The notes under the pieces were generated by a model, which saw only the letters and a program-made list of their open reading frames with translations, was not told the DNA's origin and searched no databases. DNA of 64,000 nucleotides. It comes from a virus. Below, piece by piece: positions 2,623 to 58,100 of this stretch (positions within the stretch are counted from its first letter, which is position 1; the number at the start of each line of letters is the position of its first letter). The DNA lies in IMG/VR virus record IMGVR_UViG_3300036945_000368, positions 16,031 through 80,030 of that record. One strand, given 5' to 3'. Both the position numbers and the translations under genes were made by a program.

Positions 2623-3203
2623 TGTCACAGATTATTTATAATGCTATTCGTACACCCGATGGTACAGTTCTGCACAGTCGTCATCGTCATGACTACAAAG
2701 AACACTTAGATGCTATTACTGGTGAACTGTATATCAATGACGGTGGCAATGATTACCAGCGCCGTAGTGTAAATACAACACCAGCTGAAGAACTTTCTAT
2801 CACAATGGATGATTCTCATAGTGTCAAACGACAGTTTATTACATGGAAGACTTACGGTAAGGACGGAGAATTTCCAGAAGGTAAGTTGCTCAAATTGTGT
2901 GATATGGAGGTTGACCATATTCGTGCTATACTTGATACTCAACACCACATTCATGGTACGTATATTGAACAGTTGTTTGCAGATGAGTTAGAATGGAGAG
3001 AGGACAACTCTGTAGGCACTTTAGGTGATTTTTCTGAATGGCTTATGGCGGCTCAATCCGGTACAATCGGACCTTTCGGTAAACCTATGCCATTGATTAC
3101 AGAAATTCTTTATGGAGTTTGTAAGAACAACGAAGAACAATTTAAGCAAGTTTGTGATATGATGCAGGTTGCTTTCGAAGCAGGTCAAAAATTTAAGGAG
3201 TAA
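2622..3203 (+). CDS. conserved hypothetical phage protein
   Basis: 193-aa ORF, SRHRHDY...DGGNDY motif, TAATG coupling. Confidence 0.75.
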   Translation: MSQIIYNAIRTPDGTVLHSRHRHDYKEHLDAITGELYINDGGNDYQRRSVNTTPAEELSITMDDSHSVKRQFITWKTYGKDGEFPEGKLLKLCDMEVDHIRAILDTQHHIHGTYIEQLFADELEWREDNSVGTLGDFSEWLMAAQSGTIGPFGKPMPLITEILYGVCKNNEEQFKQVCDMMQVAFEAGQKFKE

Positions 3204-3205
3204 CT

Positions 3206-3343
3206 ATGTCAGAAACTGAAAAATTTTGGGTTGCAGTTGCAGCTAAGTTTGGTGATAACCGTCAGTGGCATCAATTGCAACCGCAGGAGCAACATCAGGT
3301 TATCATGGGTATCAACATGATTTTATCGGTGGTAGCGCGATGA
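3206..3343 (+). CDS. small hypothetical protein (45 aa)
   Basis: Below track cutoff: MSETEKFWVAVAAKFGDNRQW...; AAGGAG SD; ATGA overlap with the next gene. Confidence 0.65.
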   Translation: MSETEKFWVAVAAKFGDNRQWHQLQPQEQHQVIMGINMILSVVAR

Positions 3344-4639: not shown

Positions 4640-5674
4640 ATGTCAGAACGTCAATTAGCAACAATCCGTAAAATCGCTGCATTAGAACCTATTGAAGGCG
4701 CAGATGCAATCGAAGTAGCCGTAGTCGATGGTTGGAAAGTGGTAGTAAAAAAGGGGGAGTTTGCTGTAAATCAGTTAGCGGTATATTTCGAATTGGATGC
4801 GTGGATTCCAACAGAACTAGCGCCGTTCTTATCCAAAGGTAAAGAACCTCGTGCTTTCGAAGGTATCCGTGGTGAACGCCTACGTACAGTTAAACTACGT
4901 GGTCAAATCAGCCAAGGCTTGTTACTGCCTTATATTGAAACCTTAACTGTTGAACATGAAGGTAATACAGGCATTGGCGATTGGAAAGAAGGTGATGACG
5001 TTACAGAAGCCTTAGGTATTAAAAAGTGGGAGCGTCCTATGAATGCTCAACTTGCAGGTATGGCACGAGGCAATTTCCCTGCATTAGTACCAAAGACTGA
5101 CCAAGCACGTATTCAAAACCTTACTCGTGATTTTGAGAAGTTGCAGGAAGATACGTGGTCCATTACCGAAAAGCTTGATGGTTCGTCTTGCACTTTCTAT
5201 TTGGATTCAGAAGGTGAATTTCACGTATGCAGTCGCAATCTAGACTTGAAACCTGACGAGGTAAATACCTTTTGGAAACTTGCCTTGCAATTGGATATCG
5301 AAGCTGTTATGCGCCGACATAGCCTATTAGGTATGGCTATTCAAGGTGAAATGATCGGTGAAGGTATTCAAGGTAATCAGTACAAGACAAGGCTTGACTT
5401 TTACGTTTACGACATGTACAATACAAGTACTGGCGAGTACATCTTGCCAATTCAGCTTGAAGCTGCATGTAAACGTTTAGGTTTAAAGCACGTACCTATT
5501 ATTGCATCCAACACCGATATCAAAGAACAGACAATTGAATCTATTTTGCAATTTGCAGAAGGTAAGTCTCAATTGAATGGTAGTGAGAGGGAAGGTTTGG
5601 TCTTTAAGAGTAGTACTGTACATTACTTAAGTTTTAAAGCTGTGAGTAATCGTTGGCTCATGAAATATGAATAA
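4640..5674 (+). CDS. RNA ligase, DRB0094 family
   Basis: N-terminal OB-like module (PIEGADAIE...KLRGQISQGLL), TEKLDGSS, QGEMIG, EREGLVFK, FKAVSN. Confidence 0.9.
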   Translation: MSERQLATIRKIAALEPIEGADAIEVAVVDGWKVVVKKGEFAVNQLAVYFELDAWIPTELAPFLSKGKEPRAFEGIRGERLRTVKLRGQISQGLLLPYIETLTVEHEGNTGIGDWKEGDDVTEALGIKKWERPMNAQLAGMARGNFPALVPKTDQARIQNLTRDFEKLQEDTWSITEKLDGSSCTFYLDSEGEFHVCSRNLDLKPDEVNTFWKLALQLDIEAVMRRHSLLGMAIQGEMIGEGIQGNQYKTRLDFYVYDMYNTSTGEYILPIQLEAACKRLGLKHVPIIASNTDIKEQTIESILQFAEGKSQLNGSEREGLVFKSSTVHYLSFKAVSNRWLMKYE

Positions 5675-57219: not shown

Positions 57220-57309
57220 TGGCGGGTAGTGTAGGATTTGAACCTACGGGTCACGTAAGTAACCTAAGGGTTAGCAACCCTCTGCAATCGGCCTCTCTGC
57301 CAACCACCC
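57220..57309 (-). tRNA. tRNA-Ser(GCT)
   Basis: GAGGG-TT GCT AA-CCCTT; long variable arm; G-CCA. Confidence 0.92.
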
Positions 57310-57313
57310 TTAT

Positions 57314-57353
57314 TGGTGGACAACAATGGCTTAGTAGCAGCCTATCATCGCCC
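57314..57353 (-). ncRNA. CCA-terminated tRNA-Ala-like minihelix
   Basis: GGGCGATGAT-A-GGCT-GCTACTA-AGCC-ATTGTTGTCC-ACCA. Confidence 0.6.
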
Positions 57354-57358
57354 ATAAC

Positions 57359-57434
57359 TTGCTGACCTACGTGGCCTCGAACCACGGGCATCGAAATTAA
57401 CAGTTTCGCGCTCTACCGACTGAGCTATATGCCA
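57359..57434 (-). tRNA. tRNA-Asn(GTT) (ends G-CAA; one acceptor-stem mismatch)
   Basis: CGAAA-CT GTT AA-TTTCG; canonical D and T arms. Confidence 0.85.
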
Positions 57435-57442
57435 ATATTTAA

Positions 57443-57543
57443 TTGTAGCAGGCTGCACACAAGCATTAAAGTTGCGCTTCGATATTTAACGGCATTTAAG
57501 CTTCCGCAACACCCTTTACCCTAGCTCCAGTCTACGGCTACAA
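57443..57543 (-). ncRNA. putative rod-shaped RNA within the tRNA cluster
   Basis: TTGTAGC/GCTACAA terminal stem; GTTGCG/CGCAAC inner stem; internal loops. Confidence 0.45.
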
Positions 57544-57546
57544 AAT

Positions 57547-57632
57547 TGGTGGACACCCTAGGTAACGCTCCTAGCGAGTGCATAGACAACGGTTTTACAG
57601 ACCGCTTCGCCTCTTTAACGAAATATGTGTCC
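57547..57632 (-). tRNA. tRNA-Tyr(GTA), non-canonical T-loop
   Basis: GCGGT-CT GTA AA-ACCGT; long variable region; CTAGG-AGCGTTA-CCTAG; A-CCA. Confidence 0.8.
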
Positions 57633-57794: not shown

Positions 57795-58100
57795 TTATTT
57801 TGAGTAGTGCTCAATAGCGTGGCAATTTGCACACAAGATTTCGCATTTATCTATCTCTTCTTTTAATTTTTTCAAAGACCACGATCTTGCAACAGTAGCA
57901 ATAGTTGCCTCTTTTGTTGTTGGGTCAGTGTGATGAAACTGTAAGGCAGCTGGATGTGAAAAACCGCACCTAGTACATTTTAATGTTTTCTTAAATTCTA
58001 GATACTCCGCTTGACGTTTGTCCTTCCATGCTTTGTTTAAAGCATTGCGTTTCTCTCTATTATTTTGTGCCCATTCTCTGTGGTACTCTTTTGTTGTCAT
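57795..58100 (-). CDS. HNH endonuclease inside the tRNA cluster
   Basis: CTRCG...LQFHH.DP..K...EIDKCEILCANCH..EH. Confidence 0.88.
   Translation of the reverse strand: MTTKEYHREWAQNNREKRNALNKAWKDKRQAEYLEFKKTLKCTRCGFSHPAALQFHHTDPTTKEATIATVARSWSLKKLKEEIDKCEILCANCHAIEHYSK

What the first reader, a model, noticed from the sequence alone, without database searches (positions are those of the whole stretch)
57314..57353. A 40-nt alanine-identity minihelix encoded like a tRNA gene
Seen: between tRNA-Asn and tRNA-Ser, with tRNA-like 4-5-nt spacers, the minus strand reads GGGCGAUGAU-A-GGCU-GCUACUA-AGCC-AUUGUUGUCC-ACCA. This is a 10-bp plus 4-bp helix with a 7-nt loop and an encoded ACCA end. The first pairs are G1-C, G2-C, G3.U with discriminator A. 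Four G.U pairs would be A.C mismatches on the other strand, which fixes the orientation. Established: G3.U70 with A73 is the AlaRS identity set and is sufficient for aminoacylation of minihelices. Inference: a chargeable but anticodon-less RNA, acting as a decoy for tRNA-targeting toxins or uncharged-tRNA sensors, an Ala donor, or a minimal tmRNA-like acceptor. tRNA scanners would probably miss it.
Basis: partly seen in the sequence, partly recalled or inferred. Interest (0 to 1): 0.8.

Follow-up and report, generated by a model that had tools for sequence, protein, structure and literature searches.

The report
Phage alanine-type tRNA minihelix gene
A freshwater phage carries, inside its row of tRNA genes, a 40-base hairpin that keeps only the alanine-marked, CCA-ended tip of a tRNA; related phages keep the same tip while the rest of the hairpin changes freely, so it is probably a working small RNA, although nobody has shown that it is made or loaded with alanine.

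Summary
Minus strand 57353..57314 folds into a 10+4 bp hairpin (-17.8 kcal/mol, z -3.7; the opposite strand does not fold) with G3.U70, A73 and an encoded CCA. It sits in a tRNA-gene slot between tRNA-Asn and tRNA-Ser. ARAGORN and Rfam both miss it.

It is not an isolated remnant. I found 8 distinct versions (39-44 nt) on 10 viral contigs from two phage groups. Their ends are identical (GGGCG[A/G]...[U/C]UGUCC-ACCA) and their interiors cannot be aligned. Two versions differ by four double compensatory pair changes. The element occupies four different cluster slots, coexists with a full tRNA-Ala and a tmRNA in one group, and is absent from several complete relatives, so it is optional.

Close relatives hold a 68-nt anticodon-less tRNA-like RNA with the same alanine marks in the window's slot.

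Best reading: a tRNA-Ala-derived acceptor-end mimic, matured like a tRNA and probably charged by host AlaRS. Its job is unknown. Expression and charging are untested, and no partner gene was found.

This scan has flagged the same family, and similar alanine mini-tRNAs in other phages, before on other DNA. The nearest things in print are synthetic minihelix-Ala and the TLD-only tmRNA of mycobacteriophage DS6A.

The parts
57314..57353 (-). The 40-nt alanine-type minihelix gene (class A). RNA nt 1 = 57353 and nt 40 = 57314.
   Evidence: Sequence. Fold -17.8 kcal/mol, z -3.74. Covariance model hit of 39.2 bits, E 1.6e-5.
57344..57353 (-). 5' strand of the long helix (nt 1-10, GGGCGAUGAU). G3 is at 57351. 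Nt 1-5 are invariant in all 8 family versions.
57328..57343 (-). Variable interior: bulged A (57343), 4-bp stem GGCU/AGCC and the 7-nt loop GCUACUA (57338..57332). It cannot be aligned between subtypes, and the loop is not a T-loop.
57318..57327 (-). 3' strand of the long helix (nt 27-36, AUUGUUGUCC). U70-equivalent is nt 34 = 57320. UGUCC is invariant in the family.
57314..57317 (-). Discriminator A73 plus the encoded CCA end.
57361..57434 (-). Upstream neighbour tRNA-Asn(GUU). The spacer AAGUUAU lies at 57354..57360.
57220..57309 (-). Downstream neighbour tRNA-Ser(GCU). The 4-nt spacer AUAA lies at 57310..57313. RNase P cleavage at the 5' end of tRNA-Ser would leave a 4-nt trailer on the minihelix.
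   Evidence: The processing step is inferred.

Best explanation
This is a small RNA gene derived from a phage tRNA-Ala and reduced to a single hairpin that mimics only the acceptor end of the tRNA.

Proposed path: it is co-transcribed with the tRNA cluster. RNase P cuts it free at G1, RNase P acting on tRNA-Ser cuts 4 nt after its CCA, and exonucleases trim it to the encoded CCA. That gives a stable RNA of about 40 nt whose first five pairs, discriminator and CCA carry the alanine identity set. Host AlaRS most likely binds and charges it. Because it has no anticodon it cannot decode. It would therefore act in trans as an acceptor-end mimic, either as a competitor or decoy for host proteins that read tRNA 3' ends (AlaRS itself, or defence enzymes that attack tRNA tails and acceptor stems), or as a carrier of activated alanine.

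Shown here: the structure, its orientation, its tRNA-like placement, conservation of the ends while the interior varies under compensatory change, and the fact that it is an optional accessory element.

Inferred: transcription, processing, alanylation and the trans-acting role.
For: (1) The fold is strong and strand-specific.

(2) Family: 8 distinct sequences on 10 contigs (window; L009; L010; L031=L213=L214; L081; L019=L178; L123=L208; L210). A covariance model separates them cleanly, scoring 34-47 bits against a next-best 16 bits in 1.08 Mb.

(3) Nt 1-5 and UGUCC-ACCA are invariant. Pair 6-67 switches between A-U (3 sequences) and G-C (5 sequences). The interior cannot be aligned.

(4) L123 and L210 differ at 12 of 39 positions. 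Eight of these form 4 double compensatory pairs and none breaks a pair, while the flanking tRNA-Ile is 100% identical and tRNA-Glu about 93% identical.

(5) The window and L019 hold the same slot (Asn-x-Ser) with the same ends and different interiors. Nearly the same element as in L019 sits in the Thr-x-Glu slot in L031, L213 and L081.

(6) The top four pairs GGGC/GUCC plus ACCA match those of the bona fide or reduced tRNA-Ala(UGC) of related phages L056, L057 and L072.

(7) A second anticodon-less type (class B, 68-69 nt, with acceptor and T-arm covariation) carries G3.U70, A73 and CCA on a different acceptor sequence. It occupies the window's slot in L008, L014 and L015, and no contig has both types.

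(8) A scan for any NCCA-ended hairpin in these clusters, not restricted by identity, found no other recurrent type. The one other candidate is an unconserved insertion.

(9) L123 and L208 carry a full tRNA-Ala beside the minihelix, and L123 also a tmRNA, so the minihelix is not simply the wreck of the only alanine acceptor.

(10) Established knowledge: G3.U70 governs alanine identity and works in minihelices (review PMC9976931, section 'Alanine identity', citing Francklyn and Schimmel 1989).
Against: There is no evidence of transcription, end maturation or charging. The RNA-library contigs I laid on the region do not cover 57314-57353.

The element is dispensable. Complete relatives G008, G009 and G010 lack it entirely, and the tRNA cluster of Limnohabitans phage DC31 (the only part of that genome I inspected) has no slot for it.

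Pair 4-69 is C-G, not the G-C that serves as a minor determinant in E. coli (own knowledge).

No loop resembles a T-loop, so recognition by RNase P, EF-Tu or the CCA-adding enzyme is less certain than for a textbook minihelix.

Ascertainment caveat: L123, L208, L210, L178 and L213 were retrieved with patterns that required GGGCG...TGTCCACCAAT, so for those sequences the invariance of these bases is partly by construction. Only the window, L009, L010, L031, L081 and L019 were found without fixing positions 4, 5, 68 and 69.

By a crude mapping, G3.U70 also appears in 8 of about 292 non-Ala tRNAs of these clusters.

No co-occurring protein partner was found.
Confidence: 0.55

Rival explanations
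1. It is a pure RNA-processing or stability module. The hairpin with its RCCA end serves only as an extra RNase P and exonuclease landmark, or as a protective 3' or 5' cap, within the polycistronic tRNA precursor. It is never charged, and the alanine marks are inherited baggage.
For: It lies inside a tightly packed cluster with no promoter or terminator of its own. Hairpins with a 3' RCCA are classical RNase P model substrates (own knowledge; see also PMC12710915 on the RCCA dependence). The stacked length of about 14-16 layers is kept in all versions.
Against: The flanking tRNAs carry their own RNase P sites, and many relatives join the same tRNAs directly with 4-8-nt spacers, so no punctuation is needed. 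RNase P does not need pairs 2-5 to be sequence-invariant, nor two fixed G.U pairs, yet these never vary while the rest of the helix covaries freely. A second family (class B) arrived at the same G3.U70/A73 marks on a different acceptor sequence.
Confidence: 0.15
2. It is a decaying tRNA-Ala pseudogene: a neutral leftover of internal deletions that persists because it is harmless.
For: It is optional and patchily distributed. L020 has a full tRNA-Ala in the slot where L031-type phages have the minihelix. The clusters are visibly fluid, with HNH endonuclease ORFs inserted among the tRNAs. An earlier follow-up of the 41-nt version (e1-5918013) leaned this way.
Against: Neutral decay would not keep 14 end positions identical across lineages whose interiors have diverged beyond alignment. 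It would also not produce four double compensatory changes with no broken pair. The element occurs in two phage groups and four slots, and beside an intact tRNA-Ala. The interior shows no residual similarity to any tRNA-Ala arm.
Confidence: 0.12
3. It is a minimal tmRNA-like (TLD-only) RNA that interferes with, or substitutes in, host trans-translation, for example by titrating SmpB, as proposed for the TLD-only tmRNA of mycobacteriophage DS6A.
For: The acceptor end (G3.U70...UCCACCA) is the kind shared by tmRNA. [quoted passage not shown] The L123 phage group encodes a tmRNA as well. Class B in close relatives does have a T-arm.
Against: Class A has no T-loop consensus and no D-loop analogue, which are the parts of the TLD that SmpB and the ribosome use (own knowledge). 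Its loops are GCUACUA, ACGGUC, GCAA and AUCA. ARAGORN finds no tmRNA here, and Rfam shows no tmRNA-family match at E<=10.
Confidence: 0.1
4. It is a DNA-level element, such as a homing-endonuclease or recombination site, or a small palindrome, rather than an RNA gene.
For: HNH endonuclease genes sit in these clusters (57795-58100 here), and the element appears in different slots, which suggests mobility.
Against: Four G.U pairs in the window version, and three in L123/L210, would be A-C mismatches on the other strand or in cruciform DNA. The compensatory changes preserve RNA pairing. The spacing and the encoded CCA match those of the tRNA genes.
Confidence: 0.03

Closest known systems
Synthetic minihelix-Ala and microhelix-Ala substrates of AlaRS (Francklyn and Schimmel 1989, as listed in review PMC9976931). 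[quoted passage not shown]
   Same: Both are a single hairpin with G1-C72, G2-C71, G3.U70, A73 and a free CCA, and no anticodon. The laboratory RNAs are charged by AlaRS. From memory of the 1995 paper, which I could not read here, their expression slows E. coli growth by competing with tRNA-Ala.
   Different: The laboratory minihelix is a 7-bp acceptor stem stacked on the 5-bp T-stem with a true T-loop. This natural one has a bulged or mismatched helix of 14-15 layers, no T-loop, C4-G69 and a second G.U at 5-68. It is a genome-encoded phage gene, and its charging is untested.
TLD-only (CDS-less) tmRNA of mycobacteriophage DS6A (Hudson, Lau and Williams 2014, PMC4131195)
   Same: Both are phage-encoded, alanine-type, anticodon-less acceptor RNAs with no coding function. 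Both suggest interference with a host system that reads tRNA-like ends.
   Different: DS6A keeps the whole tRNA-like domain with its T-arm and is recognised as tmRNA by the tmRNA tools. The element here is about half that size, lacks the T-loop and D-loop analogue, and is not detected by ARAGORN or Rfam.
[quoted passage not shown]
   Same: Both are non-tRNA RNAs encoded within a phage tRNA cluster, presumably released by the tRNA-processing machinery, with unknown function.
   Different: From memory, the T4 species are about 120-140 nt and are not known to carry alanine identity. I detected no sequence or model similarity, and Rfam gave nothing.
Acceptor-stem plus CCA hairpin substrates of tRNA-tail-cutting immunity (Cas12a3; PMC12851939)
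   Same: That paper shows that a truncated tRNA-Ala hairpin with acceptor stem and CCA is still recognised and cleaved by a defence nuclease that targets tRNA 3' tails. An RNA of this shape could therefore compete for such enzymes.
   Different: Those hairpins are engineered reporters. No link between this phage, its host and any such defence system has been shown, and a generic decoy would not need G3.U70.

Membership tests
Canonical tRNA (Rfam RF00005; ARAGORN model) | Cloverleaf with D-arm, anticodon arm and T-arm | tested here: not met
   ARAGORN and cmscan at E<=10 report nothing at 57314-57353. The fold is a single hairpin.
AlaRS substrate (alanine identity set, minihelix-Ala type) | G3.U70 wobble pair | tested here: met
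   G at 57351 pairs with U at 57320. The pair is invariant in all 8 class A versions and in classes B and C.
AlaRS substrate (alanine identity set, minihelix-Ala type) | Discriminator A73 and a single-stranded 3' CCA | tested here: met
   ACCA at 57317-57314 is unpaired in the MFE structure and invariant in the family.
AlaRS substrate (alanine identity set, minihelix-Ala type) | G1-C72 and G2-C71, with no G1.U72 antideterminant | tested here: met
   The antideterminant is described in PMC9976931.
AlaRS substrate (alanine identity set, minihelix-Ala type) | G4-C69, a minor determinant in E. coli (own knowledge) | tested here: not met
   The pair is C4-G69. The tRNA-Ala(UGC) of related phage L056 and the reduced tRNA-Ala-like RNAs of L057 and L072 also have C4-G69, so this is probably tolerated in this host.
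AlaRS substrate (alanine identity set, minihelix-Ala type) | Actual aminoacylation with alanine | not testable with these tools
   This needs an in vitro charging assay or an in vivo acylation assay.
tmRNA tRNA-like domain / TLD-only tmRNA | T-arm with a conserved T-loop and a D-loop analogue (the SmpB-binding elbow), next to a G3.U70 acceptor stem | tested here: not met
   ARAGORN calls no tmRNA. There is no tmRNA-family match in Rfam. The loops differ between versions and none is T-loop-like.
RNase P minihelix-type substrate | A coaxial helix of roughly acceptor-plus-T-stem length, a 3' RCCA and a 5' leader | tested here: inconclusive
   The helix of 14-15 layers, the ACCA and the 5-8-nt leader are present. 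No T-loop is present, and cleavage cannot be tested here.
Phage tRNA-cluster stable RNAs (T4 RNAC/RNAD type) | A non-tRNA RNA encoded in the tRNA cluster and accumulating as a stable species | tested here: inconclusive
   The location criterion is met. Accumulation is unknown, because the RNA contigs give no cover.

The most novel reading that the evidence does not exclude
Phages have repeatedly whittled tRNA-Ala down to anticodon-less, alanine-chargeable acceptor stubs: the 39-44-nt hairpin here, the 68-nt D-armless form in sister phages, and similar mini-tRNAs that this scan has noted in unrelated phages. On this reading the 40-mer is among the smallest natural substrates of an aminoacyl-tRNA synthetase, a living counterpart of Schimmel's minihelix. 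It would work as a weapon in the conflict over tRNA ends, either by soaking up host immune enzymes that cut or modify tRNA 3' tails and acceptor stems, or by throttling AlaRS.
Probability: 0.3. Interest if true: 0.85.

Novelty: new variant of a known kind. Interest (0 to 1): 0.66.

Why it matters
Since 1989 the alanine minihelix has been a laboratory construct used to argue that an 'operational RNA code' in the acceptor stem predates the anticodon. A naturally encoded minihelix with the alanine marks, kept by selection in phage genomes, would show that biology uses this minimal substrate today.

It would also add a new kind of player to the fast-growing field of tRNA-centred phage-host conflict, which already includes anticodon nucleases, tRNA-tail nucleases, CCA-modifying toxins and phage replacement tRNAs.

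Practically, tRNA scanners and Rfam miss these genes, so phage tRNA clusters are under-annotated. The family defined here gives a concrete and cheap test: one 40-mer, one enzyme and one G3-C70 control.

Tried and rejected
1. Remnant of tRNA-Trp. Many relatives have tRNA-Trp between Asn and Ser, but its sequence is unrelated to the hairpin. Rejected.

2. Expression. One run search and one read-laying were made. Only Logan contigs were available, the RNA-library contigs cover the neighbouring tRNAs (mostly from other organisms) and do not cover 57314-57353. This gives no evidence either way.

3. Known RNA families. Rfam at E<=10 was run on the window region and on three relatives. Nothing matches class A, class B or the 86-nt Tyr-like RNA.

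4. Cultured phages. blastn in 'distant' mode with two versions against 50,697 phage records gave only chance hits. The closest cultured relative, Limnohabitans phage DC31 (TerL 86%), has no minihelix in its cluster.

5. Partner enzymes. No FemAB, CCA-adding (PolyA_pol) or AlaX/tRNA_SAD domain was found in the 80-kb genome. Pfam and PHROGs over about 60 ORFs show nothing that depends on aminoacyl-tRNA; an RNA ligase is present.

6. Gene co-occurrence. All 120 ORFs of this genome were run with tblastn against 7 whole relatives: 2 with class A, 1 with class B and 4 with neither. No ORF tracks the element; only tail modules vary in a similar way.

7. Wide pattern scans of IMG/VR. The two 18-base patterns gave 36 stretches, of which 3 added new contigs: L208, L210 and L213.

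8. Other minihelix identities. A 35-nt ACCA-ended hairpin in L123 is an unconserved insertion that is absent from L210.

9. More diverged family members. The covariance model found none in 1.08 Mb of related loci, nor in the 10 whole related records searched, beyond the copy already known in G006 (the L009 contig).

10. Promoter and terminator scan. It was uninformative.

Full report
WHAT IS THERE

The window is part of an 80-kb IMG/VR phage contig that CheckV estimates as 98% complete. The phage has a T7-type primase-helicase, PolA, ribonucleotide reductase and a TerL that is 86% identical to that of Limnohabitans phage DC31, a freshwater phage of a betaproteobacterial host.

On the minus strand a tRNA cluster runs in this order:
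- Met, then Thr
- an HNH endonuclease ORF
- Ile, then Glu
- an 86-nt non-canonical tRNA-Tyr-like RNA
- a rod-like RNA of about 100 nt
- Asn
- the 40-nt hairpin
- Ser, then Pro

It folds as a single structure of 10 bp, a bulged A, 4 bp and a 7-nt loop with a free ACCA. The energy is -17.8 kcal/mol, this structure takes 94% of the ensemble, and z = -3.74. The complementary strand is no better than shuffled sequence. Four G.U pairs fix the strand. The spacers are 5-8 nt upstream and 4 nt downstream, like those between the tRNAs, and nearly all tRNAs in these clusters encode their CCA. ARAGORN and Rfam do not report the element.

RELATIVES

A TerL search gave 80 related loci, about 45 of them with tRNA clusters. 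I inspected the inter-tRNA gaps, ran regex scans and ran three pattern scans of IMG/VR.

These yielded a family I call class A: 8 distinct sequences of 39-44 nt on 10 contigs.
- Window: slot Asn-x-Ser.
- L019 (=L178): slot Asn-x-Ser, where the Asn is a non-canonical tRNA-Asn that ARAGORN misses.
- L009 and L010: slot Ser-x-Pro.
- L031 (=L213, =L214) and L081: slot Thr-x-Glu.
- L123 (=L208) and L210: slot Glu-x-Ile. These three contigs are fragments (CheckV 45-67% complete; I extrapolate roughly 105 kb) with no TerL match, which I take as a second, larger phage group.

All class A members share GGGCG[A/G] at the 5' end and [U/C]UGUCC-ACCA at the 3' end. That is G1-C72, G2-C71, G3.U70, C4-G69, G5.U68, R6-Y67, A73 and CCA. 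The interior of the hairpin cannot be aligned between subtypes. In the acceptor helix, pairs 1-5 never vary and pair 6-67 switches between A-U and G-C.

Within one subtype, L123 and L210 differ at 12 of 39 positions. Eight of those form four double compensatory pair changes, three lie in the loop and one lies at a mismatch. No pair is broken. Over the same stretch the flanking tRNA-Ile is identical and tRNA-Glu is about 93% identical. The interior therefore evolves fast under a pure pairing constraint, while the end is held constant in sequence.

A covariance model built from the eight sequences finds only these members in 1.08 Mb of related loci. They score 34-47 bits and the next hit scores 16 bits.

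CAVEAT ON ASCERTAINMENT

L123, L208, L210, L178 and L213 were retrieved with patterns that fixed GGGCG...TGTCCACCAAT. Their end identity is therefore partly built in. The window, L009, L010, L031, L081 and L019 were found from TerL-anchored loci with at most GGG...TCCACCA fixed. For these, the identity at positions 4, 5, 68 and 69 is a real observation.

ORIGIN

The top of the helix (GGGC/GUCC-ACCA) is the same as in the tRNA-Ala(UGC) of related phage L056 and in the reduced 73-nt tRNA-Ala-like RNAs of L057 and L072. L020 carries a full tRNA-Ala(UGC) in the Thr-x-Glu slot, with a homologous upstream spacer, where L031, L213 and L081 carry the minihelix. Derivation from a phage tRNA-Ala is therefore likely. 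No residual similarity of the interior to any tRNA arm remains.

At the window's own slot, the close relatives L008, L014 and L015 carry a 68-nt RNA that I call class B; L057 has a 69-nt version in another slot. Its features are:
- acceptor stem GGGUAY/RUAUCC-ACCA, again with G3.U70 and A73
- a T-arm with compensatory changes and a UUUAAYU loop
- a variable central hairpin
- no D-arm and no conserved anticodon loop

No contig has both A and B. L063 and many other relatives have neither. Complete relatives G008-G010 lack class A anywhere in their genomes. L123 carries a full tRNA-Ala and a permuted tmRNA as well as the minihelix.

The element is therefore an optional accessory. It is not a replacement for tRNA-Ala, and it is not the only route these phages have taken to an anticodon-less alanine-type acceptor.

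IS THE ALANINE MARK SPECIAL?

A scan that listed every NCCA-ended single hairpin (28-61 nt, at least 6 of 7 terminal pairs) in or next to these clusters, whatever its identity, found no other recurrent type. The best other candidate, a 35-nt hairpin in L123, is an insertion that is missing from L210.

By a crude end mapping, G3.U70 also appears in 8 of about 292 non-Ala tRNAs. Most of these are tRNA-Gln with G73. The pair is therefore rare in these clusters but not unique to the alanine types.

MECHANISM

Shown: the structure, its orientation, its tRNA-like placement, and selection on the end sequence and on interior pairing.

Inferred: co-transcription with the cluster (no separate promoter or terminator was detected); 5' cleavage by RNase P; 3' trimming to the encoded CCA; and recognition and charging by host AlaRS. 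The charging inference rests on G3.U70, A73 and the first two pairs being the established alanine identity set, which works in minihelices (PMC9976931).

Sequence invariance of pairs 2-5, including two G.U pairs, points to a protein that reads the acceptor helix base-specifically. RNase P does not need this. AlaRS is the obvious reader. What the RNA does after that is open.

I found no phage-encoded partner:
- no Fem-type transferase, CCA-adding enzyme or AlaX
- nothing suggestive in Pfam or PHROGs
- no ORF whose presence tracks the element across seven whole relatives

The target is therefore probably a host factor. Two precedents make a competitor or decoy role plausible. First, laboratory alanine minihelices are listed in PMC9976931 as growth inhibitors (Hipps and Schimmel 1995; I know the paper's content only from memory). 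Second, a defence nuclease that cuts tRNA CCA tails accepts acceptor-stem-plus-CCA hairpins derived from tRNA-Ala (Cas12a3, PMC12851939). The phage also carries an RNA ligase. In T4 such an enzyme repairs cleaved tRNA (own knowledge), which is at least consistent with a host that attacks tRNAs.

RIVALS

- A processing-only module is possible. It does not explain the invariant alanine marks, nor why relatives do without it at the same junctions.
- A neutral pseudogene is contradicted by the conservation pattern.
- A TLD-only tmRNA mimic, with mycobacteriophage DS6A as precedent (PMC4131195), fits class B better than class A. Class A lacks the T-loop and D-loop analogue and is not detected by the tmRNA tools.
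- A DNA-level site is contradicted by the G.U pairs.

PRIOR NOTES OF THIS SCAN

The 41-nt version (L009/L010 type) was flagged before as e1-5918013, and its follow-up thought it might be a leftover because it saw only one near-identical relative. The 44-nt version was flagged as e1-5899999. Similar anticodon-less alanine mini-tRNAs were noted in unrelated phages. I did not re-test those.

In the literature I could search, I found no description of a natural alanine minihelix gene. The nearest items in print are the synthetic minihelix-Ala, the DS6A TLD-only tmRNA, and the function-unknown T4 RNAC and RNAD (PMC3014915).

VERDICT

The feature is real, conserved and tRNA-Ala-derived. It is probably a functional acceptor-end mimic that AlaRS can charge. 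Its function is unknown and its expression is unproven. I class it as a new variant of a known kind (phage tRNA-like small RNAs and alanine acceptor mimics). It is of considerable interest because a single cheap experiment would decide the central claim.

Noticed in passing
window 57547-57632 (-): An 86-nt non-canonical tRNA-Tyr-like RNA (GGACAC...GUGUCC-ACCA). It has the anticodon loop CUGUAAA (GUA), an unusual T-loop AGCGUUA, an odd D-arm and a 13-nt unpaired variable region. ARAGORN and the Rfam tRNA model both miss it. It is conserved in L008, L010 and L015, with 5 double compensatory pairs. In L014 and L063 a canonical tRNA-Tyr occupies the same slot.
   Followed up: partly
window 57440-57545 (-): A rod-like RNA of about 100 nt (ends UUGUAGC/GCUACAA) with no CCA, between the Tyr-like RNA and tRNA-Asn. 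It is conserved in L014 (inside the Tyr-Asn gap). An RNA-library contig (X21) covers it with 8 differences. The fold z-score is not significant (+0.3).
   Followed up: partly
L008:4268-4335, L014:7211-7278, L015:624-691, L057:3656-3724: Class B: 68-69-nt D-armless, anticodon-less tRNA-like RNAs with G3.U70, A73 and CCA. They have a covarying T-arm with a UUUAAYU loop. In L008, L014 and L015 they sit in the slot where the window has the minihelix. They resemble a tmRNA TLD more than class A does.
   Followed up: partly
L057:5246-5318, L072:1207-1279: 73-nt reduced tRNA-Ala(UGC)-like genes with a 3-bp D-stem and the same odd T-loop AGCGUUA as the window's Tyr-like RNA. ARAGORN does not call them. 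This suggests a phage-specific, mitochondria-like reduced tRNA architecture.
   Followed up: no
L034:9326-9378, L080:8661-8713: 53-nt CCA-ended RNAs that keep an acceptor stem and a Tyr-type anticodon stem-loop (CUGUAAA) but lack D- and T-arms. They look like 'armless' mini tRNA-Tyr candidates.
   Followed up: no
L123:10-405 (-): ARAGORN calls a permuted (two-piece type) tmRNA with tag ANDTQFALAA in the second, larger phage group (my estimate roughly 105 kb). The same cluster holds tRNA-Ala(UGC) and the class A minihelix, so this phage has three alanine-type acceptors.
   Followed up: no
L020:8118-8193, L052:3317-3392: A phage tRNA-Ala(UGC) whose acceptor stem pairs only if one U in the 3' strand is bulged out (GGGUCAC / GUG-U-AUCC). 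It is conserved in two contigs.
   Followed up: no
L084:2205-2281; L010:4362-4435, L032:8862-8939, L123:1477-1550 (-): By a crude end mapping, a tRNA-Arg(UCU) carries G3.U70 with A73, and several tRNA-Gln(UUG) carry G3.U70 with G73 and a U1-U72 mismatch. These could be dual-identity or mischarging-prone phage tRNAs.
   Followed up: no
window 4640-5674 (+): An RNA ligase gene (PF09414 with a PHA02142 OB domain) lies next to an ATP-dependent DNA ligase. In T4 such an enzyme repairs cleaved tRNA (own knowledge), which hints that the host attacks tRNAs.
   Followed up: no
window 57795-58100 (-); gaps in L010, L017, L019, L028, L061: HNH endonuclease ORFs are inserted between tRNA genes in many of these clusters, and gene order differs even between phages whose TerL is about 90% identical. 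The clusters are recombination hot spots.
   Followed up: partly
L213:1842-1906 and 3170-3239: Rfam int-alpA RNA matches just downstream of the tRNA cluster: 40 bits, above the gathering score of 35.8, and a second match at 34 bits.
   Followed up: no
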